A DNA stretch of 64,000 bases from the human T2T-CHM13v2.0 reference genome, Homo sapiens, in NCBI RefSeq assembly GCF_009914755.1, contig NC_060929.1, one strand, 5' to 3'. Each line of letters starts with the position of its first letter. Positions within the stretch are counted from its first letter, which is position 1. The position numbers and the translations under genes were made by a program. Below the pieces are notes generated by a model. That model searched no databases, had not been told where the DNA came from, and saw nothing but the letters and a program-made list of their open reading frames with translations. This document shows positions 5,469-64,000 of this stretch, in pieces.

Positions 5469-8400
5469 GCCAGAAAATGCCACAGATTTTCAAGAGGCAC
5501 TCTTATTATCATCTCTACAAGATGACTGAAAGTGACATTTTGAAAATATCTTTTAAACAGCTCCACCTCATGTCACTGCTGCTGAGATTTCTGACTCCTC
5601 CCTTCCGGCTCTTCAGTGACCTTCAGTGCCCACTGGATTCCAAAGCTCAATCCTCTGTGCAATGATTCCAACTCCAGGGATCAGTGTCTGAAGTGAAGCT
5701 ACAGATTGTCTGGTGGATAAATAATCCAAGAAGGAACGGGGGATGTTATGACTTTTTGAGAGAAGGCTAACATGTCATCCTTGACAGATAAACTTTAAAA
5801 AATTATAATAATGGAAATGAAGAAAGAAAACAACAGAAGATGAGAATAGCAAAAGAGCTAGACATTTCCGACAGGTAAGAAAATGGGAAACAAACCTCTA
5901 AAATGCTTAAGAAAAATATTGCAAATGTGTTTATCCAATGTGTATTTCATGTTAGAATAATCCAGTTTTAAAAAGTAAATGAAGATCATTAAAAATTGGA
6001 AATATAGTGCTTTTAGGCTAAATTGTACTAGATGCCTTTTTACATATATGATTTGAAAAACAACCCTACAGTTTCAGAATGCACTACTGTAAGAAAATTA
6101 TAAAAAGAAACCACCAAAAGCTAGTATTGGCACAATGGGGTTTTAATTACTTTATCTTTTAGTAAATAATCTTAAAAATCTGGTATACTTATTTTCATTG
6201 GCAGAGTTGAGATCTCCTTTCTTAATGCACTCAATGTTTTATTATTTTAAAGAACTGAAAACCCCCACATTCCTAAAATGATAAGTTCGGTTATTAACCT
6301 TCAAAGAAAATAAAAGTCAATTCAGACAAGCTGTGTTGGCTTGTTTTTAAAACAGTAGCTTTGAGAAGCATATATATTTTCCACTACCACTTTATATGGA
6401 TTCAGGCAATGGTCAAATTCAAGGAAAGAAAACATATAAACCATTTTCAGCAGAGAAAAATCAAAGTACATGTAATAAAAGAATGGTTGGGTCAAATGTA
6501 ATCCTCAAGTCTTAAAAGACAGCACACACTTCTGCAACAGATAGATATGAAATTTGATTTTTGGAATGGGTGAACAGTTGAATAACTTAAGGAGGTTTGC
6601 ATGATGTTGAATAACCAGGCCAATTATACTTTTTTAATAACGCTGTAAGAGATTAGGCATTTGTTTCTTGATGCTTAGTGCAGTTACTTAATGTAGTACT
6701 TTGTTCTTAGGGTAAGCTCTAAGATGTACCTTTACAGAGATTCTAGTCTATTTGTTTTCATGGAACACAAATGATTTATTTGACTGATCTTTTAAAAAAT
6801 GAAATGACCAAATAAACTAGAAATATTGCCTTGTATACGATTTAGGAAGTAGACGTCTGTTCCTGGCTCTGCAGCTAACTACACAACCATGAGTCAGTCA
6901 CTGGATCTTAGTTTCCATGTTTGTAAATCAGAAATAAAGTATCATTCCTATCTAGAGTACAGGGCTGCTGTAGAGATCAAGTAAGATAGCAAGCCTTGTC
7001 AGCACATGAATTATTGATGAATTAATTAATGAACAATGCAGTACTTTAAAAATCATTAAGCCCTGAAGACTATGAGACGTTATCTGCATCAGCACAACCA
7101 TAGAATCTGTACTCTTAGAGATTTAAGAAAAAGGAGAGAGAATTCTATGGGAGATGCTCACAGTGTGGTCCTACCCCATTTTGGGCTCCTCACATATATA
7201 CTTGGGGGTTGGGAGATGTACAAACTCTCTGAAGCCACAACTCTCTGAAGTTACATAACAGAATTTTGTTCATATAGAACGAATAGAAAATATTCTACTT
7301 CTTTGCTTTTAAAATTAACGACAGGAAATACAGAACTTGATATAAGAAATATAAAACAGGAGGCAATAGAAAATTGTGGAAAGAACACGGAACTCTCTGG
7401 AAGCCAGAAGACTTGGGCTCTGGTCCCTGTTCTGCTAATATTTAACTGCAATGCTGCAATATCTGTCAAATGAAAGGAATATATTAGAGGACCTTTATAG
7501 TCTCTTTCAGATCAAAGCACCATAGCCCCAAATGAAATAGAACAAATAATGTAAAATATAATTTTTCTATGCCATGGACAATTAAGGGAAAGGGGTAAAA
7601 CAAGAGTAAAGAATAAGACAGATGGACAGAAAGAGAGGAAGAGAGTAAATGGTAAGGAAAAAAACAGACAGACCAAAAGGCAGACACACACAAACTCTAC
7701 CCCCAGCTCTCTCCCCCTCAAAAAAAGAATTTTATGAATAAAGAGACAGAAGAAAGATACACACTAACAAAATGACATTCAGATGCAGAAATAAACATGT
7801 ACATAAAAACTTTGGTGGAATTATGCTCTTATTTTGTTCATCTTGAAACTTTTAAACACAAAACTACCCAAAAAATTTAACATACTGTTGTACTTTTATG
7901 TTAAAAGGCATAAACTGAATCAGTTCAAGGCAGGTGCCTCATGAGCTAGATACAATCAAGTTGAAGGTTTAGGATTAACTGCTGCCATATGCTACTGATA
8001 TTTTTTAGTAAAATGTCACTTGATAATTTGAGATCTCACTTCCATGGGTCAATTCCAACCAAACAAGCCAAAGATGAACTCTCCTAAAATAGAAATGAAT
8101 CCCAAGAATTTTTTTATGAACAGGGCTTAGTATTATTTTGCTTCCAGATAGGCAGGATTTAAATATTTTAACTTAATAGTTACCAGTTACATAAAGTGTA
8201 AATCCCACATTGCCATTTAAAGCCCAAATTTGGCCATTTTCCTATTTAATCTTCTCTGTATTGTGTAGAGGGTACTAGATAATGTAACTCCAGCACTCTC
8301 CTTTGATTCCCTCCTAAGATGAGGCCCTTCAGATCTATAGGCTTTTCTGAGCTCCAAGCTGAGATAGGAATTTATAGACTGGGGAGCTAATTTGTACTTT

Positions 8401-8945
8401 GCTACTAATCAGAATACAGGAGAGCAGAAGAATTGCCACCCAGTTTCAAGCCTGCTGTTGCAGGATTTTGAGTAATCCCCATTCACTATGAAGTCAGCCC
8501 AGATTGACAAGAATAGGCAACACAAGAGCTCTCGATGTTTATTCTCATCTTTATCTGCTAGGAACCCTGCAAAATTATATGAGTTTTCACATCTGTAAAG
8601 AGAAAACCTGCAGGATTCATAGGAAGCTTTTCTTTCTTGTAAATAATAAGAGCTTGGAAGAAAAAACACACAAGACTTTTCTGGTTTTGTTTGGTTTTAG
8701 CTAACTCCTTGGACTTTTCTGTACTTTGGTTTTTTCCTCTATGAAATGGAACTATAACAATCCCACTCCTCCCTAACACAACTGGTGATGGAAAAATAAA
8801 TAGCATAGCAGATATGAAAGCACTCATAGCTCTTTGGAGGATGAGGATTAGATCAGTTCAGTCCAAGTGTCTGAGACATGCAACAAGAATAACAACAACA
8901 ATAATGAGCACTTGGGTTTGAACAGTGTTTAACAGTTTATACAAT

Positions 8946-9410
<465 letters not shown>

Positions 9411-9877
9411 TTAAAATGTTTTAAATATATTATTTCATTGGCCTTTATAACAAGGTATGAAGTAGGGAGGCTATTTTTTATTTCATTTGACAGATAAAGA
9501 AATTGAGGCCAAGAGGAGAGTGCCTTGCCCCAGATCAAACAGCTAGTAAACAACAGGACATGTCTCCTGACACAAAATCTAGTGCTCATTCTAGTTTACT
9601 CAACTACATATGCAGTTAATGCCTATTTCCTTTCATTCCTATCCTCCTTTAAGTGAGGCTTGCTTGGTAGGAGGCCTCTAATTAGCAATCAAAGCTTTCT
9701 GTCTCTCATGTATAGTTCTAATCTATCAACTGTATAGAGAGCTTAAATTTTACTTGAAATTCTCCTTCAGCCAATATCTGTGAACTCTGGGTCTCATGAG
9801 TCATCCAGGCCTTAAACTTTCCTTTTGAATACCATTATTTATAAATTTTGCTATTTCTCTTATTACCACATAGCACG

Positions 9878-10310
9878 TGTTAAAGCAAACTAAATATAGC
9901 CTGAGAAGGACTCTGTACTTCTACATTTGAGTCCCTGTGGATGAACTGTAACCTAGCTTAATAGGCAGACAAGATTGAAAACCTAACCTAGGAGTATGCA
10001 CCTGTAACAATAGCTGAGTCTTAGCCAATCCCAGCGGCCATACTTCAACCACTCATAGACTGCTAAGCATTCAAACTATGTTCAAAGAAGGTAAACGTCA
10101 ACCTGTAATCAATCTAGCTGTTTCTGTACCTCACCTCCAATTTCTGGACATCACTTCCCTTTTTTTGATCTATAAATTTGTTCTGACCACGAGGCATCCC
10201 TGGAGTCTCTCTGAATCTGCTGTAATTCTGGAGGCTGCCTGATTCACAAATCGTTCATTGCTCAATTAAACTCCTTCAAATTTAATTCAGCTTAAGTTTT
10301 TCTTTTAACA
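9878..10310 (+). mobile_element. ERV1-class solo LTR (MER57-like)
   Basis: Starts TGTTAAAG and ends TTTTAACA (TG...CA termini); contains CCAAT (10025), TATAAA (10171) and ATTAAA (10265) in LTR order. Family name from recall. Confidence 0.75.
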
Positions 10311-10336
10311 CGTCTAAGCCACAGATCAGTTCCTTG

Positions 10337-10397
10337 GATCCTCCCTCCTCGGCCTCCCGAGTAGCTAGGACTACAGGTGTACACCACCACGCCCAGT
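10337..10397 (-). mobile_element. Short Alu fragment
   Basis: GATCCTCCCTCCTCGGCCTCCCGAGTAGCTAGGACTACAGGTGTACACCACCACGCCCAG. Confidence 0.8.
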
Positions 10398-11331
10398 TCA
10401 TCTGTGGTATTTTTATGCTGTTCCTCATTGTGTTATCCATTGTTGAAACCATGACAGACCTAACTATTCTTAAGGTGATTTCTTTCCAGTAAGAAACTGC
10501 TAAGCCTTAGATCTCAGAAAGAACGTGAGAAGAGGCCATCATAATTTCAAACAGCAAACAAAATTGCATTCCCTTTCATTCCTATTGCTCAGTTCCCTTT
10601 ATCAATGTTATTTATGTTGTTTTCTTCAAACTACTAAAGAATAAACCAAGATGAGGAGTACCCCCCCACCTCCGCCTTTGCTGTCTTTCAATGTTTTCTC
10701 TTTGGGCCAGAAATCCCAGCACTTTGAATGGCAGGGAATCCTTCAAGCCTGTTGTACATCCCGGTATGAATAATTCTACTGAATATAACCACCCTAAACT
10801 ATGCTGAGCCATAGAACCAGAGCCTGCCTTTCCTCTAGAAGTTAGAAGAAGAAAGCATCTGGAGGAAGGAAGAATTGGAGGAATGCTTTTTAAATGAAGT
10901 TAATTCTGGGTAATAGCTCACTAGACGCTGGCTGCCTTCCTTGCCTTAATCTCCAAAATCCGCAATGTACCCCGAAACTGCCTATGGCTTCAATCCCAGA
11001 GAGTGGAAGAAGTGAAAAGAGGAGAAGGCACATGCTATTCCATAGCAGATATGTTCTGTAATTCTGGCCCCCAAACTAAAGGCTGTAGACTGGCTCTGGG
11101 CAGTAGAGCTGACAAATTTTATTCAACATACATATACTGAGTACCTACTATGTGCTCTATGTTGGGGCTGAGGGACAAATTTAGATGTGTGTTCTCACTT
11201 AATCTTCACAACTACTCAGATAGATAGAGATTATTTATCCCCATTTTACAGATAAGAAAACAGAGGAGGAAGGGTAACTGACCTACAACAAAGTCAGACA
11301 AATACCAAGAAGTGATGCTCCAACTGGAACC

Positions 11332-11740
11332 TGTCTTAGTCCATGTGTGATGCTTTAACAAAATAACACAGACAAAATATCACAAGGTTATAAACAATAG
11401 AAATTTATTTCTCACAGTTTTGGAGGCTAGGAAGTCCAAGATCAAGGCACCAAAAGGTTCAGTGTCTGGTAAGGGCTCTTCTCTTCCAGAATGGCACCTT
11501 GTTGCTGTATACTCGCACAGCAGAAGGGACAGAAGAGGCAAACTCACTTAGGGTCTCCTTATAAAAGGAATGAGTTTGCCCTTACGAAGCCCTTTTATGA
11601 GGCCCTAATCCATTCATGAGGGCAGAGCCCTCATGGCCTAGTCACCTCCTAAAAGCCCTACCTCTTAATACTGTTGCATTGGGGATTAAGTTTCAACATG
11701 AATTTTGGAGGGAACACAAACATTCAAACAAACCATAACA
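11332..11740 (-). mobile_element. MaLR solo LTR (MLT1A/MST-like) inserted next to a MIR
   Basis: TGTCTTAGTCC...AATTTATTTCTCACAGTTTTGGAGGCTAGGAAGTCCAAGATCAAGG...ACCATAACA; exact 5-bp TSD GAACC at 11327-11331 and 11741-11745. Confidence 0.88.
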
Positions 11741-11861
11741 GAACCCAACTTCAAACACAGTACTCAGGCCTCCAAAGCACAATCCCTATCCTCCTGACTT
11801 TTTATAGTCCATTGAAGCAAGTGTGTGCATACTCAGGTGACCCTAAAAAAATACAGAAGTT

Positions 11862-12225
<364 letters not shown>

Positions 12226-12425
12226 CTATAGTTAACAAGATGCTGTTACATTCCTTGCCTCACTAGCTCTGAAGACTATACTAGCGGGACAAAGAAAGCA
12301 CCTGAGATGAGCTGAGAGGAGGGTAAAGGTACACAGAGATCCCCTGGATATTTGTTCTATGTCCTCTCAGGGGCTTTGCTACCACTAGAGAATTATCCAT
12401 ATTAAGAACTTGCATTGATATTCTG

Positions 12426-12445
12426 GGTTCTGTTTCATTTTTTAG
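12426..12445 (+). other. NPY6R: Probable splice acceptor of the NPY6R coding exon (exon starts 12446)
   Basis: Polypyrimidine tract TTCTGTTTCATTTTTTAG|G, 187 nt upstream of the ATG; NPY receptor genes typically have non-coding upstream exons. Confidence 0.6.
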
Positions 12446-12632
12446 GGTCTCAAGAGCACGCTCAAGTCATTCACATGTTTCCATCAAATACAGACACAGA
12501 TCAGGGAAGATTAAACCCTACTAATTTCTCGTCGGATGCCTCACAACAAGGTGCCTTCCAAGAACTAATGGCCAAAATATCCACCCACAACACAAATAAG
12601 CTTAGAAAATCTCTTCTTACAATCCTGACACA

Positions 12633-13744
12633 ATGGAAGTTTCCCTAAACCACCCAGCATCTAATACAACCAGCACAAAGAACAACAACTCGGCATTTTT
12701 TTACTTTGAGTCCTGTCAACCCCCTTCTCCAGCTTTACTCCTATTATGCATAGCCTATACTGTGGTCTTAATTGTGGGCCTTTTTGGAAACCTCTCTCTC
12801 ATCATCATCATCTTTAAGAAGCAGAGAAAAGCTCAGAATTTCACCAGCATACTGATTGCCAATCTCTCCCTCTCTGATACCTTGGTGTGTGTCATGTGCA
12901 TCCATTTTACTATCATCTACACTCTGATGGACCACTGGATATTTGGGGATACCATGTGCAGACTCACATCCTATGTGCAGAGTGTCTCAATCTCTGTGTC
13001 CATATTCTCACTTGTATTCACTGCTGTCGAAAGATATCAGCTAATTGTGAACCCCCGTGGCTGGAAGCCCAGTGTGACTCATGCCTACTGGGGCATCACA
13101 CTGATTTGGCTGTTTTCCCTTCTGCTGTCTATTCCCTTCTTCCTGTCCTACCACCTCACTGATGAGCCCTTCCGCAACCTCTCTCTCCCCACTGACCTCT
13201 ACACCCACCAGGTGGCCTGTGTGGAGAACTGGCCCTCCAAAAAGGACCGGCTGCTCTTCACCACCTCCCTTTTTCTGCTGCAGTATTTTGTTCCTCTAGG
13301 CTTCATCCTCATCTGCTACTTGAAGATTGTTATCTGCCTCCGCAGGAGAAATGCAAAGGTAGATAAGAAGAAGGAAAATGAGGGCCGGCTCAATGAGAAC
13401 AAGAGGATCAACACAATGTTGATTTCCATCGTGGTGACCTTTGGAGCCTGCTGGCTGCCCCGAATATCTTCAATGTCATCTTTGACTGGTATCATGAGGT
13501 GCTGATGAGCTGCCACCACGACCTGGTATTTGTAGTTTGCCACTTGGTTGCTATGGTTTCCACATGTATAAACCCTCTCTTTTATGGCTTTCTCAACAAA
13601 AATTTCCAAAAGGACCTGGTAGTGCTTATTCACCACTGCTGGTGCTTCACACCTCAGGAAAGATGTGAAAATATTGCCATCTCCACTATGCACACAGACT
13701 CCAAGAGGTCTTTAAGATTGGCTCGTATAACAACAGGTATATGA
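12633..13744 (+). pseudogene. NPY6R: Neuropeptide Y receptor Y6, frameshifted (290-aa truncated ORF 12633-13505; ancestral C-terminus continues in another frame to TGA at 13742-13744)
   Basis: Class A GPCR motifs GN (TM1), ANLSLSD (TM2), ERY (TM3), CWLP (TM6); N-terminal glycosylation sequons; NPY-Y1-family motifs TLMDHWIFG, LIVNPRGWKP, LQYFVPL. After CWLP the sequence reads CCC CG AAT ATC TTC AAT: one base missing near 13461 from PLNIFN. The shifted frame carries TM7 (CHLVAMVSTCINPLFYGFLNKNFQKDL). Restoring one base gives 1113 nt = 370 aa + stop. Confidence 0.97.
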
Positions 13745-14843
13745 AAATTGATAATGCTGAAGCTCTTCTTGAATGGGAGCTGGACAGGTAATGGTGGGAA
13801 TAGGGCAAGATGCAGAAAGAAGAAACCAGAACCAAAAATAGCAACTTTATACCCACTTTTCCTTTAGGCTAAGACTGCCTGTCTCATATGTCTATCCAAC
13901 ACACCCTCCAACATACACGAACACACATACCACCCCTTTTCTCTTAAGAAAATAACTCTAATAATTCAAACAACCTGCCCGCCATCATTTGTGGCAAAGA
14001 ATGAGAATGAGAAAGCAGAGAGAGAGGCAAACAGCAGTGATGGCTGGGGAACAATGTTCACAGATACTTTTATTCAATGGAATATCTACAAAAGTTATGA
14101 CTAATGATATGCCTAGTAAAAACACTGCTATACCTCCTTAGCACTGAAGCAAGTCTATTCTCAGATATGAAAACTGTAACTTTCAATCATATAACTATTC
14201 AATTAATTAGCCAAGTCAGAAAATCCCCCCTTAAAATTCATTAATTAATTAACAAACTAAGTTTGGACTAAAGTTGAAGGGCTGGTTTTAACTTAACATT
14301 TAAACGAAGTGTTGTAATTACAATTAATTCCCATGCTTGAATCATATCTCCAGTTTATGATAACAGTACATTTTATTCACTAACAATGCTATTAGAACTG
14401 GCCACAAATTCTTTAGCATAGCAATTATGCTAGAAATTGCTCTAACAAACTTATTAATGGCCAATGTAGATACAGCTTTCCTCACAAAGTGGCTTTTAAT
14501 CCCTAATTCTTTATGTATATTAAAAAGAGGTCATTATGACTCTATTACTGGATCTCAGAGACTTTGTCAGTAGCATTTTTATAATTAGCGCCAGATTTTT
14601 AAAACCTTCTCATATATCTTGTGGCTTAAACATTTTTAAAAGAGCCCTCATCCCCACAGAGTTGCTTACACAGGGGAATCAACTAGACTGTTCTCAAAAG
14701 ACACTAAGCTACTGTTCAAATTGCTATTAACTGAAGTCACTTTTATTAAATTGTGACCAGCTTTACCACTTCTTAGAACAAACCTCCCCTATATCTATCA
14801 AAGTTGAACTGCAGCTTATTTGTATGTTAAAAATGTAACTGTA

Positions 14844-15122
14844 GGCTGGACTCAGCAACTTACACCTGTAATCCCAGCCCTTTGGGAGGCCAAGGTGGAG
14901 GATCACTTTTGCCCAGGAGTTGAAGACCAGCCTGAGCAACACAGTGAGACTCCATCTCTACTAAAAATACAAAAAATTAGCCAGGTGTGGTCATGCATAC
15001 CTGCAGTCCCAGCTACTTAGATGAGAGGAAGGATCACCTGAGCCTGGGAGATCAAGTGAGTCATGATCACACCACTGCACTCCAACCTGGATGAAAGAGT
15101 GAGACCCTGTCTCAAAAAAAAA
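14844..15122 (+). mobile_element. AluJ-like element
   Basis: Diverged dimer with poly(A); TSD-like AAATGTAACTGTA / AAAGTAACTATA. Confidence 0.9.
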
Positions 15123-15149
15123 TTTTAAAAGTAACTATATTTTCTTTTG

Positions 15150-15333
15150 AATAAAAAGTAATGTTTCTGGAAACATCTGTGATTTTTCTATTGTGCTTTT
15201 TCTTGCACATTAGCTTTCACATTTTCCTCTCCTGAAAATCTCTTTCTCTCTTCCTCTTTCCCTCCTTCCCTTATTCTCTCTTTATTCATTCTCTTTAGGG
15301 TTTCTATTCTCTGTTTTATCATTTTGGAATAAA
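15150..15333 (+). terminator. Candidate NPY6R polyadenylation signals
   Basis: AATAAA at 15150-15155 (followed by T-rich sequence) and at 15328-15333; use not provable from sequence. Confidence 0.3.
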
Positions 15334-59842: not shown

Positions 59843-60206
<364 letters not shown>

Positions 60207-60297
60207 CTAGTCCGAGTGTAAATACAATACACTGGAACTAAATTGTATTAAAACCCAATGAGATTTAGAACAAATCTATTTTTTCTCTTTCTTGCAG

Positions 60298-60364
60298 GTG
60301 CTCAGGGAAGTAAGGAAGTTTTATCTCTGGAATTGTGGTTGAAATGTGCTACAGAAATTTCAGG
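60298..60364 (+). pseudogene. Palladin/myopalladin-like exon A (post-Ig1 linker), 67 nt, phase 1 to 2; putative vestigial upstream exon of myotilin
   Basis: Acceptor TTTTTTCTCTTTCTTGCAG|GT, donor CAGG|GTAAGT; open frame (G)AQGSKEVLSLELWLKCATEIS(G) joins in phase to exon B. Peptide similarity alone is weak; support comes from splice sites and phase. Confidence 0.65.
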
Positions 60365-60775
60365 GTAAGTGCAGAATCTCATGTGGATGTGCATTTGTTG
60401 CGTGTGAATATAGTGAAAGTTCCACTTTAAAAAATACCAAAAAAAAAAAAAAAACCTAAGACTTTGCAGACAAACTTTTAAGTGATTATTTGCTTTATAG
60501 GTTATTTCTTCTAGACAACGTGTTTCATAACACACCCTGATTACCAGACTGAGACAAAAGAAATTTAAAGTGAAACAATTAGGAACCATAATCCACTAAT
60601 AATTGGTTAAAAAGGCAAAAAAAGTATTAAAATGATTATGCAAATGTAGAGAAATTTAAGAATTATAGGTAAAAATGTGTGCTACATTCAAATGTGTATA
60701 CAGTGAGGCATTTCTATCAAAGTCGCCTCTAATCTTTCTTTCACTTGACGGTGTTTGGTTTTGTTTCCCCCACAG

Positions 60776-60893
60776 GATAAAGAAGAAAACCACTAGAGTT
60801 TCTCTGACCATCAGCTCCCCAACGAATGAAACCTCCAACAACAGATCAAGTTACTCTAACTTAGTTCAACAACTGTATATTAATCCCTAGAGG
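60776..60893 (+). pseudogene. Palladin-like exon B, 118 nt, phase 2 to 0, with in-frame TAG
   Basis: Acceptor TTTTGTTTCCCCCACAG|G, donor AGG|GTAAGT; encodes IKKKTTRVSLTISSPTNETSNNRSSYSNLVQQLYINP*R. KKTTRVSLTISS resembles palladin QKKTTSVSLTIGSS (recalled). Confidence 0.8.
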
Positions 60894-61590
60894 GTAAGTT
60901 CAGTTTTAAGCCTTCTGAGAGGGTCTTAGTAATGGAGACATAGGCCCAAGAAAAAGGAGTCAATGCAGTTTTCTTAAGAAGTATACAAGAAGAAAGCCTC
61001 TAGCTGCATGAACTCAAAAGAACAAGAAAGAAATCCATAGGTTTCAGAAATAACTCCATGGTAGCTCTATGGCTTGGCCCTTTGTTTGTGTGCCAGATAA
61101 GGGACAGTTGGTTTCTAGGAACTTGTTCCCATAAGAGAATATTCCAACTATCCGAGGAATGAATTCCCTTTTAATTTAAAAAAAAAGCGGGGGAGGGAGA
61201 TGCTTTTTTGGAAATCTAAAAGATCCAAGAAGAGCAATTGTATGGAGGAAGAAAAAAAATTTAGTAAAATTTAAACTTTTTTTAAATGTTTAATATATAG
61301 TATCTAAATACTTGCCAATATGCATTTCCCAAATATAATTGCCCAGTGTTGTATTTCTCCATCTCAGCTAATGGAATGCTGAAGGATAAAGAAGCAAGTG
61401 TAGCACACTGGAGCAAATACCCAAACTGACACTGAAATTAGAAGCATCATGCTTTTCATAAAGGAAAGTTAAGGTGTGGTCAGTAGCAGCTAGAACTGAG
61501 CCCGTCAGTTTCTGGCAACCATGGACCTGAGTTTCAGGGCTTTGACAGTATGAGTGACAGCACCATGTTCTCTTTTATTCCTTAAACCAG

Positions 61591-61653
61591 ATGCAGAGTC
61601 CCTGCAGCAGCCTGTCAGGATCCACTTGTGTAGTACCCTCTGTGTTTACCAAG
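61591..61653 (+). pseudogene. Palladin/myopalladin-like exon C (start of Ig2), 63 nt, phase 0 to 0
   Basis: Acceptor TTCTCTTTTATTCCTTAAACCAG, donor AAG|GTAACC; encodes MQSPCSSLSGSTCVVPSVFTK, compare palladin VHSPTSYL...PPVFTK and myopalladin QSPTNYL...APVFTK (recalled). Confidence 0.8.
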
Positions 61654-62843
61654 GTAACCTCTCCATACTGCATGATGGAGTTTAGATTTTATAAGTAAGT
61701 TTTAGACATTAGTGAAGCGGTGAGAAGAAAAAAAGGGGAAATCAGAAAGGATTTCAGAGATTATTATCACGTTATATATGAGAAAAAATGAGGCTGAAAA
61801 GGGGTGAAATGATTTGCTCAGTGTCACAGAGCAATTCATGGTTTACCCTGTGCTCTTTAGACTTCTGCTCTGTGGCCGTCCTCCACCTCTGGAGGGCAAT
61901 GCTTAGACTGTCCCCTCCAAGGAGACTGCTTTGCCTGACCTCAAAATATAGTCAAATTCTCTTAACTAGCCATAAAATGCCATTCTGAAGAAGTCAACAA
62001 GCAAAGTAGTAACTAAGTCCTGATTAGGTCACAGCCAGGAATCACTATCTTCCCTCTCACCCACTGGAAATAGCACAATTCAATCACCCCGGTCAAACCA
62101 AAACTAGGGCTAAGCCTTCTCTGGGCTCTCTGTCTCCCAATTACCAAACCTGGCAGAATTGGAATCAATGCCCATTGCTGGCTCAAAGTATGAAATGCAG
62201 GGCAGGGATTTAATCTGTACCAGATACAGGATGGGAGACAAACAAAACAATGTCATTAAGAGTAAGTGACATTGCTATTGATTCTGGAAGCTTGTTTTCA
62301 ACAGATGCTGTCACGTACATGTCTGTTATTTCTACAAGTCTCTCCTGCTGCATTCCTTCCCTATAAGATGCCTGAGACCTCTGGGCATCAAGCCTGAGGG
62401 TTAGGCTGGTCCTTAGTCTAACCTGTAGAAAGACCTCAGATTCCCGCTCTCTGGTCTCACTGCCAAGTTATAATCTGAAATATCATTCTAGATTCCAGGG
62501 TACTCTGGGGTTGCAGGTAGAGGGAGGAGAAAGATCAGGATTTAAGGGGTAAATTTAACATAAATGCCATCCATTCATTTATACATTGTGATACTAAACT
62601 AGCTAAAAACACTTTTTATATATCTGTATAACTCTTACTCTTTACAGGAAGTTTTCAGACCTTTGTGAAATGAACCTCAAAACCCCACATATTTTGCTAG
62701 CCCTATTTCATAGACAAAGAACCTGAGTTCCAGAGAAGTTAATAGTCTTTTCCAAGTTCCTATAACCAGCTTCAATCAGCCAGTGGCAGAGTTAATATTT
62801 TGGCCCAAGTTCCCTAATTCAGGGCTCTTAAGAAATTACAACA

Positions 62844-63188
62844 TAGTACTCACTTCGTTATCCAGTTTCACTTTCTGTGGTTTCAATAACCCACGGTCAA
62901 CTGCAGTCTGAAAATAGATGAGTAGAGTATAATAAGATATTTTAAGAGAAAGAGAGAGAGAGAGAACACATTCACATAACTCTTATTACAGTATACTGGT
63001 ATAATTGTTCTATTTTATTAGTTATTGTTGTTAATCTCTTACTATGACTAATTTATAAATTAAACTTTATCATAGGTGTGTATTACAGGAAAAAACACAG
63101 TGTACACAGGTTTCAGTACTATCCATGGTCTCGGGCATCCACTGAGGGTCTTGGAATGTGTCCCCTGCAGATAAGGGGTGATTACTGT
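62844..63188. mobile_element. MER44-like Tigger MITE
   Basis: TTATCCAGTTTCACTTTCTGTGGTTTCAATAACCCACGGTCAACTGCAGTCTGAAAATAG...GATAAGGGGTGATTACTG with degenerate TIRs. Confidence 0.85.
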
Positions 63189-63557
63189 ACTGCCCATGCT
63201 ACTGTGACCAATAATAAAGACTAAATCTGTGACTAGATATGTACTCAACAAAATAAATATAACAACAGAAGGAGTGTTCAACCAATCTGTTTTCTAATTT
63301 GAATAAAATGGCTCTTGGCCAAGTGAAATAATAACTTTCTCATTAAATATAATTCTATGAAGATAAAAATAATTTACACCTGACTGTAAAGCACACTACA
63401 AAGCCCAAAAGAATGCCCGACAGCGCCTTAAGATACAGTCAGCTGTCAATAATTATGATTTAAAAAAAGATGCACTCTTACTGCAAATGGCATTTCAAAT
63501 CATTGTAGATGGTATAACAGTTTCTTCCATCCTCTGAACTCTGTGTTTGTTCTTCAG

Positions 63558-63699
63558 CATCTTCAAGACATCCCTACAACCAGAGGTCAGTTGGTCATGT
63601 TTGAATGCGGAATCCAGGCCACAGCCACAGTTCAAGTTCACTGGTACAGAGAGAACGTGCAGATAGCCAACTCAGATGACTTTCGGATTCTGAGGAAAA
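63558..63699 (+). pseudogene. Palladin/myopalladin-like exon D (N-terminal half of I-set Ig2 domain), 142 nt, phase 0 to 1
   Basis: Acceptor TGTGTTTGTTCTTCAG|CAT, donor AAAA|GTATCA; encodes HLQDIPTTRGQLVMFECGIQATATVQVHWYRENVQIANSDDFRILRK with I-set B-strand Cys and C-strand Trp. Aligns without gaps to recalled myopalladin Ig2 MLQNLSASEGQLVVFECRVKGAPSPKVEWYREGTLIEDSPDFRILQK. Confidence 0.88.
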
Positions 63700-64000
63700 G
63701 TATCATGATAAGCCTTTCAATTGTTTTTAATTCCAGTTAACCTTGAAGTCTACTTCCTGTTTTAAAGTTTAATTGCTGATTTTTTTTAAAGGCTTAAAGA
63801 TTTGTGCTGGTAAACAATTATTATCTCAAATCCAAATGATTTCTCAACAATAACCAACAAAGAAAACTGTTTTGATGAAAGAGTAATTTTCATAGCTGTG
63901 AAAAGATTGGTTTATCATCATAAATTAATCTTATTTTCATAATGAGTTCTTGACATATAAACAAAAAGAAATATGAGAATAAACATATTTCTTAAAGGGT

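What the first reader, a model, noticed from the sequence alone, without database searches (positions are those of the whole stretch)
60298..63699. Hidden four-exon chain encoding the palladin/myopalladin N-terminal region upstream of myotilin: a fossil or cryptic long myotilin
Seen: four + strand segments (67, 118, 63 and 142 nt) each have a polypyrimidine-AG acceptor and a GT donor. Their phases (1-2, 2-0, 0-0, 0-1) join into one frame: GAQGSKEVLSLELWLKCATEISG|IKKKTTRVSLTISSPTNETSNNRSSYSNLVQQLYINP*R|MQSPCSSLSGSTCVVPSVFTK|HLQDIPTTRGQLVMFECGIQATATVQVHWYRENVQIANSDDFRILRK. Established: MYOT lies just downstream of NPY6R on the same strand at 5q31. Myotilin has only two C-terminal Ig domains, whereas its paralogues palladin and myopalladin have five. 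The motifs KKTT.VSLTI.S, QSP...PxVFTK and LQ...GQ.V.FEC...V.WYRE...I..S.DFRIL.K occur in the same order in the palladin/myopalladin Ig1-Ig2 linker and Ig2. From memory the matching PALLD exons are also 67 and 142 nt (needs verifying). Inference: these are the ancestral 5' exons of MYOT, so myotilin's 'lost' N-terminus is still readable in the genome, and a longer myotilin isoform may be intact in other vertebrates.
Basis: partly seen in the sequence, partly recalled or inferred. Interest (0 to 1): 0.92.

Follow-up and report, generated by a model that had tools for sequence, protein, structure and literature searches.

The report
Dead upstream exons of long myotilin
Just upstream of the human muscle gene MYOT lie the decayed coding exons of a longer, three-Ig-domain myotilin that many other vertebrates are still predicted to encode; in humans they now appear only as a predicted non-coding RNA.

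Summary
The four + strand segments exist with the stated lengths, splice signals and phases. They are not hidden: they coincide with exons 1-4 of the predicted lncRNA LOC107986368.

Exon 4 is the first half of an I-set Ig domain. Its best matches elsewhere in the human genome are 142-nt exons in MYPN and PALLD with the same phase. PALLD also has the 67-nt exon, in the same order and phase.

Outside the window I found the rest of the chain:
- a micro-exon, 20 nt in human and 24 nt in PALLD and MYPN;
- the second half of the Ig domain;
- a linker exon.

Public predicted proteins splice this same chain onto MYOT exon 2. They are named "myotilin isoform X2" and similar, and come from sharks, fishes, amphibians, reptiles, birds and several mammals. 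Other mammals carry it as a separate ~240-aa "palladin-like" model.

The human copy is dead: the start ATG is now ATT, and there are three in-frame TAGs, a destroyed splice acceptor and frameshifts. A macaque model appears to share several of these lesions.

The kind of event is ordinary: lineage-specific loss of isoform-specific coding exons, leaving a lncRNA. My six full-text searches found no paper describing a three-Ig myotilin.

The parts
60298..60364 (+). e1, 67 nt, phase 1->2. In intact orthologues it carries the start codon of long myotilin, 2 codons before its 3' end. Human has ATT at 60357-60359 where they have Met.
   Evidence: Searches give sequence, borders and phase. Orthologues start MSEIKKK, MSDIKKK or MEMSEIKKK; human reads ..TEISG|IKKK. 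PALLD has a 67-nt exon with the same phase at C4:172040308-172040374, ending ..GAMP(Q). MYPN has a 52-nt one ending ..EEMN(R). DNA similarity of e1 to the PALLD exon is weak: 50 of 5000 shuffles reach the score.
60776..60893 (+). e2, 118 nt, phase 2->0: linker with the KKTTRVSLTISS motif. In-frame TAG at 60888-60890 where orthologues have Q (..DPQR).
   Evidence: 68-73% identity to naked mole-rat, pig and tenrec long myotilin. PALLD counterpart at C4:172041974-172042079, 106 nt, same phase, AQKKTTSVSLTIGS...
61591..61653 (+). e3, 63 nt, phase 0->0: MQSP...SVFTK, the strand leading into the Ig domain. Open in human.
   Evidence: 73-82% identity to orthologues. PALLD 75-nt and MYPN 72-nt counterparts, phase 0->0, both ending PVFTK.
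63558..63699 (+). e4, 142 nt, phase 0->1: first half of an I-set Ig domain of the palladin/myopalladin Ig2 type. Open in human. The chain continues beyond the window end (coordinates on the window's scale, loci L012 and L033): micro-exon 64967-64986 (20 nt, 24 nt in the paralogues); e5 66315-66431 (second half of the Ig, acceptor AG->AC, TAG at 66420-66422); e6 about 66532/66536-66770 (junction codon TA+G = TAG); MYOT exon 2 from 74875, open for about 70 codons up to the canonical ATG.
   Evidence: Pfam I-set E 3.2e-6. Best human paralogues are 142-nt, phase 0->1 exons in MYPN (C10:69027310-69027451) and PALLD (C4:172049578-172049719). Parts outside the window.

Best explanation
These are the decayed, isoform-specific 5' coding exons of MYOT.

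Inferred ancestral state. The vertebrate myotilin gene had an upstream transcription unit encoding a short linker, one I-set Ig domain of the palladin/myopalladin Ig2 type, and a second linker. That unit had two possible outcomes:
- it ended just after exon e6, giving a ~240-aa single-Ig protein; or
- it spliced from e6 into MYOT exon 2, reading through what is 5'UTR in the short form and giving a ~750-850-aa three-Ig long myotilin.

This resembles the several promoters of PALLD, which drive its 200-, 140- and 90-kDa isoforms.

State in the human lineage, and apparently in macaque. The upstream unit is disabled:
- the start codon is lost;
- there are three in-frame stops;
- one splice acceptor is destroyed;
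- two small deletions shift the frame.

RefSeq predicts a spliced lncRNA, LOC107986368, that uses the old exon borders e1-e4. Canonical two-Ig myotilin is made from the downstream promoter.

Shown here: the exon anatomy, the paralogy, the existence of joined orthologue models, and the human lesions. Inferred: that the long form is really expressed and functional in other species, the ancestral nucleotide at each lesion, and the timing of the loss.
For: Anatomy and paralogy
- Exon-by-exon match with PALLD: 67/106/75/142/24/120 nt against human 67/118/63/142/20/117 nt, same order and phases.
- MYPN has 52/not located/72/142/24/117 nt.
- The best genome-wide paralogues of e4 are the MYPN and PALLD exons.
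- The squirrel orthologue matches the MYPN linker plus Ig2 at 50% over 127 aa, E 4e-35. The other Igs give 21-30%.

Intact orthologues
- A search of 1.84 billion representative proteins with the 47-aa e4 peptide gave 341 hits at E<=0.001. Among the 13 fetched was a 764-aa reindeer protein running e3-e4-e5-e6, then about 70 aa, then canonical myotilin to ..YESEEL.
- Searching with its first 280 residues gave 186 hits, of which 120 were listed. More than 20 of those rows are named myotilin (or myotilin-like) isoforms and cover 94-100% of the N-terminal extension.
- Species include Marmota, Dasypus, Heterocephalus, Tenrec, Cavia, Octodon, Mycteria, Anolis, Varanus, Pleurodeles, Latimeria, Protopterus and Pristiophorus.
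- Pfam finds 3 I-set stretches in the mole-rat, stork and coelacanth proteins.

Orthology rather than a recent copy
- Myotilin N-terminal Igs from sawshark to mammals form one clade (support 94/99).
- The human relic lies inside the mammals (96/84 with squirrel and whale; 99/97 adding opossum).

Human lesions
- ATT in place of the start Met.
- TAG at 60888-60890.
- 20-nt micro-exon instead of 24 nt.
- Acceptor AG changed to AC.
- TAG at 66420-66422 after a frame switch.
- TA+G junction codon at the end of e6.

The Macaca fascicularis model reads e1 in the frame that implies the same ATT, shows the shifted e5 acceptor (RKRSLHL), and ends without the W.

MYOT exon 2 is open for about 70 codons upstream of its ATG and is 76-84% identical to orthologues there.
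Against: - All long-myotilin and palladin-like proteins used are automatic gene models. I saw no transcript, junction-read or peptide evidence for the e6-to-exon-2 junction in any species.
- In at least 10 mammals NCBI annotates the chain as a separate gene rather than as part of MYOT. The human lncRNA model ends at 67040 without joining MYOT (hub table).
- The ancestral bases at the lesions are inferred from orthologue proteins and human paralogues, not from orthologous DNA.
- The human conceptual translation is only slightly more diverged than intact copies: 53% identity to opossum against 56-61% for 10 intact placentals, and 76-77% to squirrel and whale against 74-91% among the others. Sequence decay is therefore mild.
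- The 4-nt and 2-nt losses add up to 6 nt and restore the frame across the micro-exon. This could be chance or a trace of past selection.
- I examined only one human genome, so polymorphism at the lesions is untested.
- The e1 sequence similarity to the PALLD 67-nt exon is marginal.
Confidence: 0.88

Rival explanations
1. The chain is, and always was, a separate small gene: a ~240-aa single-Ig "palladin-like" protein lying upstream of MYOT. On this view the long-myotilin models are read-through artefacts of annotation pipelines, and the human lncRNA is the unitary pseudogene of that small gene rather than part of MYOT.
For: - Of 21 proteins matching the macaque model at E<=0.001, among 177 candidates, most are 182-289-aa models (range 134-314). 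They are named palladin-like, myopalladin-like or Palladin in Ictidomys, Pseudorca, Cervus, Equus, Chinchilla, Canis, Castor, Manis, Bison, Panthera, Camelus and Monodelphis.
- The squirrel, false killer whale, lion and opossum models end ..W directly after e6, as an unspliced TG|GTAA donor would give; the horse and dog models continue for 10 and 11 further residues after that W.
- The human lncRNA model ends at 67040, upstream of MYOT (hub table).
Against: - The roughly 70 codons of MYOT exon 2 upstream of the canonical ATG are open in human and 76-84% identical to orthologues, in the frame the long form needs.
- Joined models recur from sawshark, coelacanth, lungfish, bichir, newt, lizards and stork to several mammals.
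- The order Ig2 - linker - FNYERPKHF-type motif - C-terminal Ig pair is collinear with MYPN.
- The two readings are not exclusive: both transcripts may exist.
Confidence: 0.08
2. The human chain still encodes a protein. This would be either a cryptic long myotilin, or a small protein of about 110 aa starting at the ATG that opens e3 and containing most of one Ig domain.
For: - e3, e4, e6 and the 5' part of exon 2 are open.
- With the 20-nt micro-exon and the shifted acceptor, the frame runs from e4 into the second half of the Ig domain.
- Some orthologue models start at the e3 Met.
Against: - The conserved start Met is ATT.
- There is a TAG in e2, a TAG in e5 before the last beta strand, and a TAG at the e6 junction codon, so no ORF can reach MYOT.
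- A product from the e3 ATG would lack the final strand of the Ig fold and would carry a premature stop upstream of further junctions.
- RefSeq classes the transcript as lncRNA (hub table).
Confidence: 0.03
3. The segments are a chance ORF-like pattern, or a recent duplicated fragment of PALLD or MYPN inserted near MYOT.
For: Ig I-set half-domains are common in the genome, and titin exons also match e4 weakly.
Against: - Six collinear exons match in length class and phase.
- Orthologues are 70-83% identical in e4 in other mammals.
- The tree places the human relic within the mammalian myotilin N-terminal Ig clade, on a branch separate from PALLD Ig2 and MYPN Ig2.
- Sharks and lobe-finned fishes have the same arrangement.
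Confidence: 0.01

Closest known systems
Palladin (PALLD) Ig1-Ig2 linker and Ig2, and its several promoters for the 200-, 140- and 90-kDa isoforms
   Same: - Same exon order, phases and near-identical lengths: 67/106/75/142/24/120 nt against 67/118/63/142/20/117 nt.
- Shared KKTT.VSLTI and P.VFTK motifs and the 24-nt micro-exon.
- A Met 2 codons before the end of the 67-nt exon sits where long myotilin starts.
- Mouse Palld has separate promoter regions at exon 1, upstream of exon 3, and at exon 12 (PMC7333403, passages read).
   Different: - The myotilin unit has no Ig1 and no Ig3.
- It is a distinct ancient paralogue (tree).
- In human it is disabled.
- That the 140-kDa palladin starts at this same Met is my recollection and was not tested.
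Predicted 'myotilin isoform X1/X2/X3' proteins (about 750-850 aa) and 'palladin-like' proteins (about 240 aa) of other vertebrates in NCBI and UniProt
   Same: They are the orthologues of the human chain. Mammalian copies are 68-88% identical to human e2-e5, with the same junctions.
   Different: Those models are open from Met to stop, whereas the human copy has at least six lesions. They are automatic predictions whose expression I could not check.
Lineage-specific unitary pseudogenes that remain transcribed, such as NPY6R in this same window
   Same: An ancestral coding unit, intact in other mammals, is disabled in primates and still annotated as transcribed (hub table: NPY6R is a transcribed pseudogene; LOC107986368 is a lncRNA).
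   Different: Here only the isoform-specific 5' exons died; the gene's downstream promoter and canonical product survive. That NPY6R is functional in some other mammals is recalled, not tested.
Canonical two-Ig myotilin as described in print
   Same: Same locus and strand. The long models contain the whole canonical protein, from MFNYERPKHF to YESEEL. The canonical Ig1 and Ig2 group with MYPN Ig4 and Ig5 (99/99 and 98/97), as stated in PMC5479843 (passages and section 5 read).
   Different: The literature I read defines myotilin as having two Ig domains and a unique N-terminus. The 85-sequence vertebrate analysis in PMC5479843 does not mention an N-terminal Ig in the parts I read. Its supplements were not opened.

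Membership tests
Palladin/myopalladin/myotilin family, Ig2-type I-set domain with its upstream linker | Recognisable I-set immunoglobulin domain | tested here: met
   The human e4 peptide matches PF07679 at E 3.2e-6, 27.5 bits against a cut-off of 23.7. The dog orthologue has an I-set stretch at 59-154, E 9e-18.
Palladin/myopalladin/myotilin family, Ig2-type I-set domain with its upstream linker | Closest to Ig2 rather than to Ig1, Ig3, Ig4 or Ig5 of the family, or to titin | tested here: met
   Ig2 plus linker 50% over 127 aa, E 4e-35, against 21-30% for the other four Igs. MYPN and PALLD exons rank ahead of titin; short branches to PALLD and MYPN Ig2, long branches to the other Igs.
Palladin/myopalladin/myotilin family, Ig2-type I-set domain with its upstream linker | Same intron positions and phases as PALLD and MYPN | tested here: met
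   142-nt exon, phase 0->1, in all three genes. 67-nt phase 1->2 exon in PALLD (52 nt in MYPN). Phase 0->0 exon ending PVFTK. 24-nt micro-exon. Second Ig-half exon, phase 1->1.
Part of the MYOT gene (orthologue of the long-isoform 5' exons) | Same strand, directly upstream, and joined in frame to MYOT exon 2 in orthologues | tested here: met
   Hub table for positions. for joined models. maps the reindeer protein exon by exon onto human chr5 in order. These are models only; no transcript data were seen.
Part of the MYOT gene (orthologue of the long-isoform 5' exons) | Experimental evidence that the e6-to-exon-2 junction is used | not testable with these tools
Functional human protein-coding exons | Start codon and uninterrupted reading frame across the chain | tested here: not met
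   ATT at the conserved Met. TAG at 60888-60890. TAG at 66420-66422. TA+G junction codon at 66769-66770. Acceptor AC. 20-nt micro-exon.
Unitary (lineage-specific) pseudogenised unit | Intact orthologues in other lineages, disabling lesions here, no retrocopy features | tested here: met
   Intact models. Lesions as above. Introns retained at ancestral positions. Lesions apparently shared with Macaca fascicularis are inferred from its protein model only.
Long non-coding RNA | Transcribed and spliced without a coding frame | tested here: inconclusive
   The hub table gives a predicted RefSeq lncRNA model with these exon borders. The lack of a coding frame is shown here. Transcription itself could not be checked.

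The most novel reading that the evidence does not exclude
The textbook two-Ig myotilin may be a view biased by humans. On this reading, the ancestral and still widespread vertebrate gene also makes two extra products:
- a three-Ig long myotilin whose N-terminal domain is a palladin Ig2 paralogue;
- a ~240-aa single-Ig product.

Both would be functional Z-disc or actin-associated proteins conserved from sharks to many mammals. Old World primates lost them, leaving a spliced lncRNA. Models in species that keep the long form would then differ from human muscle in myotilin biology.
Probability: 0.45. Interest if true: 0.6.

Novelty: new member of a known kind. Interest (0 to 1): 0.45.

Why it matters
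It corrects the picture of the palladin/myopalladin/myotilin family. Myotilin did not simply lose its N-terminal Ig domains early. An Ig2-type domain is still predicted at the MYOT locus from sharks to many mammals, and the human genome keeps a readable wreck of it.

It also explains one anonymous human lncRNA (LOC107986368) as residual transcription of dead coding exons.

For muscle research, it raises a practical point. Species used to model myotilin disease may express a long isoform that humans cannot make. Variants in this stretch of human DNA should not be read as coding.

The underlying event, isoform-specific exon death leaving a lncRNA, is a known kind, and the gene models are already public. 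The advance is therefore one of interpretation, not of principle.

Tried and rejected
- Solved structures. A PDB sequence search with the e4 peptide put titin Ig chains first and palladin only at E about 0.6. The two palladin chains it returned (2lqr, 2dm2) matched only weakly, and no chain gave a clearly better palladin or myopalladin match, so this did not help.
- Raw searches of the paralogue loci. Unfiltered tblastn and tblastx were swamped by Alu matches. A filter on multi-copy hits was needed.
- Withdrawn reading of the e4-e5 junction. I first read a reindeer model (..ILRKIESLPFPEEVC..) as showing an upstream e5 acceptor that kept the human frame (note 2). That stretch is translated intron. 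The true intervening piece is a separate 24-nt micro-exon.
- Relic of Ig1 or of the myopalladin N-terminus in the window. None was found: best E 5.8 and 0.15.
- Sequence similarity of e1 to PALLD and MYPN by protein search. There was no collinear hit. Support rests on length, phase and the conserved Met, with a marginal DNA alignment.
- The MYPN counterpart of e2 was not located.
- The exact human e6 acceptor (66532 or 66536) was not resolved.
- A relaxed-constraint signal from protein identities is weak.
- Literature. I ran full-text searches for: LOC107986368; myotilin with "long isoform"; with "three Ig"; with "palladin-like"; with zebrafish, "Ig-like domains" and isoform; and with palladin, myopalladin and evolution. 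None showed a paper describing a three-Ig myotilin. The listings were screened by title and abstract only, except for PMC5479843 and PMC7333403.
- Earlier findings of this scan were not open.
Full report
**What is there**

The window is human chr5 (T2T), with MYOT starting about 8 kb beyond its end (hub table). Reading 60200-64000 and tabulating borders and phases confirms the four segments exactly as described:
- e1: 60298-60364, 67 nt, phase 1->2.
- e2: 60776-60893, 118 nt, phase 2->0.
- e3: 61591-61653, 63 nt, phase 0->0.
- e4: 63558-63699, 142 nt, phase 0->1.

Each follows a pyrimidine tract plus AG and precedes GT. The same borders are exons 1-4 of the predicted lncRNA LOC107986368 in the hub table. 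That model starts 10 nt upstream of e1's acceptor and uses an inner donor in e4. So the chain is annotated, but as non-coding.

**Is it more than chance, and what is it related to?**

- The e4 peptide is the N-terminal half of a Pfam I-set domain: E 3.2e-6, above the curated cut-off.
- Searched against the whole human genome in six frames, it found one exon on chr10 (48% identity, E 4e-7) and one on chr4 (41%, E 2.5e-5). Seven titin-region matches on chr2 followed at E 0.04-4.7. That makes 10 matches from 13 scored candidates.
- Both paralogous exons are 142 nt, phase 0->1, like e4.
- I take the chr10 and chr4 loci to be MYPN and PALLD. The named shrew myopalladin reproduces the chr10 exon peptides. 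The chromosomes are also the ones I recall for those genes.
- A repeat-filtered tblastx of the MYOT-upstream region against 100 kb of each paralogue found the second half of the Ig domain outside the window, at 66312-66407 (53% to MYPN). It also matched e2 to a PALLD exon reading AQKKTTSVSLTIGS...

Going through the paralogues exon by exon gives the table below. All exons are in the same order and phases.

| Exon | Human MYOT-upstream | PALLD | MYPN |
|---|---|---|---|
| e1 | 67 nt | 67 nt | 52 nt |
| e2 | 118 nt | 106 nt | not located |
| e3 | 63 nt | 75 nt | 72 nt |
| e4 | 142 nt | 142 nt | 142 nt |
| micro-exon | 20 nt | 24 nt | 24 nt |
| e5 | 117 nt | 120 nt | 117 nt |

The Ig is the second of the family. 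The squirrel orthologue aligns to shrew myopalladin residues 405-531 at 50% identity over 127 aa (E 4e-35), against 21-30% for the other four Igs. Pfam finds five I-set stretches in that myopalladin, the first at 268-355, and residues 441-530 match the Ig_2 family.

**Intact versions elsewhere**

- Searching 1.84 billion representative proteins with the 47-aa e4 peptide gave 341 hits at E<=0.001.
- The 13 I fetched included proteins that run e2/e3-e4-e5-e6, then about 70 residues, then canonical myotilin from MFNYERPKHF to YESEEL.
- A second search used the first 280 residues of the 764-aa reindeer protein. It returned 186 hits, of which 120 were listed.
- More than 20 of the listed rows are named myotilin (or myotilin-like) isoforms of 733-992 aa that cover 94-100% of the extension.
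- Mammals: Marmota, Dasypus, Heterocephalus, Tenrec, Fukomys, Cavia, Octodon, Galemys, Dipodomys.
- Other vertebrates: a stork (a cluster of 113 members), lizards, salamanders, coelacanth, lungfish, sawshark and ray-finned fishes.
- Pfam finds three I-set stretches in the mole-rat, stork and coelacanth proteins.
- A third search, with the macaque model, found 21 proteins among 177 candidates. It showed that NCBI annotates the same chain in many mammals as a separate ~240-aa "palladin-like" or "myopalladin-like" gene.
- The squirrel, false killer whale, lion and opossum versions end ..W directly after e6; the horse and dog versions run on for a few more residues. An unspliced e6 donor (TG|GTAA) would give exactly W and then a stop; this is my inference.
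- So the unit seems to have two fates: stop after e6, or splice into MYOT exon 2.

**Orthology, not a recent copy**

In a maximum-likelihood tree of 23 Ig sequences:
- The myotilin N-terminal Igs from sawshark to mammals form one clade (94/99).
- The human relic lies inside the mammals (96/84 with squirrel and whale; 99/97 adding opossum).
- PALLD Ig2 and MYPN Ig2 are the nearest outside sequences, but that part of the tree is unresolved.
- Canonical myotilin Ig1 and Ig2 pair with MYPN Ig4 and Ig5 (99/99 and 98/97), as published (PMC5479843, passages and section 5 read).
- The tool warned of long branches among the distant Igs. The placement of the relic does not depend on them.

**State of the human copy**

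The reindeer protein maps onto human chr5 in order: e4, e5 (66285-66413), e6 (66529-66771), then MYOT exon 2 (74873-75442). There the frame is open for 190 aa, which is about 70 codons upstream of the canonical ATG. Coordinates above 64000 are on the window's scale but lie outside it (loci L012, L033).

Compared with the intact mammalian proteins, the human DNA shows six lesions:

1. ATT at 60357-60359, where orthologues have the start Met (MSEIKKK..). A Met sits at the same place in the PALLD and MYPN exons.
2. TAG at 60888-60890, where orthologues have Q.
3. A micro-exon of 20 nt instead of 24 nt at 64967-64986, with excellent splice signals.
4. AC instead of AG at the ancestral e5 acceptor, so the next AG is used and the exon starts 2 nt late. 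PALLD has AG at the homologous position.
5. A frame switch near the 3' end of e5 that gives TAG at 66420-66422.
6. TA instead of TG as the last two bases of e6, which turns the junction codon TGG into TAG.

Lesions 3 and 4 add up to 6 nt and restore the frame across that junction. I cannot say whether that is chance.

e3, e4, e6 and the exon-2 5' part remain open. The conceptual translation is only a little more diverged than intact copies: 53% identity to opossum against 56-61% for ten placentals.

The Macaca fascicularis model implies the same ATT, shows the shifted e5 acceptor, and ends without the terminal W. It has TGG where human has the e2 TAG, and it keeps the e5 3' end in frame. By inference, the unit was already disabled before the human-macaque split, and further lesions accumulated later. 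This rests on a protein model, not on DNA.

**Mechanism**

The best reading is an ancestral upstream transcription unit of MYOT, analogous to the separate promoters of PALLD. Mouse Palld has promoter regions at exon 1, upstream of exon 3, and at exon 12 (PMC7333403, passages read).

That unit made a three-Ig long myotilin, a single-Ig short product, or both. In Old World primates the coding capacity was lost. RefSeq still predicts a spliced transcript over the old exons, so the lncRNA is most simply residual transcription.

Whether that lncRNA does anything is unknown. I have no evidence either way on whether it affects MYOT or the antisense PKD2L2-DT.

**Limits**

- Every orthologue is an automatic model.
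- No expression or peptide data could be consulted.
- Ancestral bases are inferred.
- Mouse and rat status is unknown. Neither appears in the lists shown, which is not evidence of absence.
- One human genome was examined.
- The supplements of PMC5479843 (85 myotilin sequences) were not opened and might show N-terminal extensions.

**Novelty**

The six full-text searches turned up no paper describing a three-Ig myotilin or this lncRNA. The papers I read describe myotilin as a two-Ig protein with a unique N-terminus.

The gene models are public, however, and isoform-specific exon death leaving a lncRNA is a known kind of event. I therefore score this as a new member of a known kind, of moderate interest.

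Noticed in passing
L033, window-scale coordinates 74875-75087 (outside the window): The 5'UTR part of canonical MYOT exon 2 is an open frame of about 70 codons in phase with the canonical ATG. It contains no upstream ATG and is 76-84% identical to the long-isoform proteins of other mammals.
   Followed up: partly
L012 967-986 (window scale 64967-64986); C4:172050244-172050267; C10:69030553-69030576: A 24-nt micro-exon coding KPRS.AEPE splits the Ig2 domain in both PALLD and MYPN. Myotilin orthologue models exist with and without the matching 8 residues, which suggests alternative inclusion inside an Ig fold.
   Followed up: partly
Proteins P0227, P0236, P0259 and others: Several ray-finned fish proteins named palladin or myopalladin by NCBI are clearly myotilin. 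They have an N-terminal Ig2-type domain, the FNYERPRHFIQ motif, two C-terminal Igs, and end in ..YESEEL or ..YESAEL. UniRef calls some of them Myotilin.
   Followed up: partly
window 5615-15173 and 60288 onward: According to the hub table, two neighbouring units in this window are transcribed wrecks of coding genes: NPY6R, an annotated transcribed pseudogene, and the myotilin upstream unit.
   Followed up: no
window 60887-62907 and 63482-63689, minus strand: Exons of the predicted antisense lncRNA PKD2L2-DT overlap the end of e2, all of e3 and most of e4. RefSeq enhancer marks lie at 62759-62918, in the e3-e4 intron (hub table).
   Followed up: no
Protein P0009: An unnamed 138-aa database protein is 100% identical to human e4 and continues into the translated upstream intron. 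It looks like an ab initio ORF call on this locus rather than a real product.
   Followed up: no
Human micro-exon/e5 junction, window scale 64967-66320 (outside the window): The 4-nt loss in the micro-exon and the 2-nt acceptor shift in e5 together restore the reading frame (..ILRK-KVYHPFL-EVCTL..). This could be coincidence or a trace of a period when the frame was still under selection.
   Followed up: no
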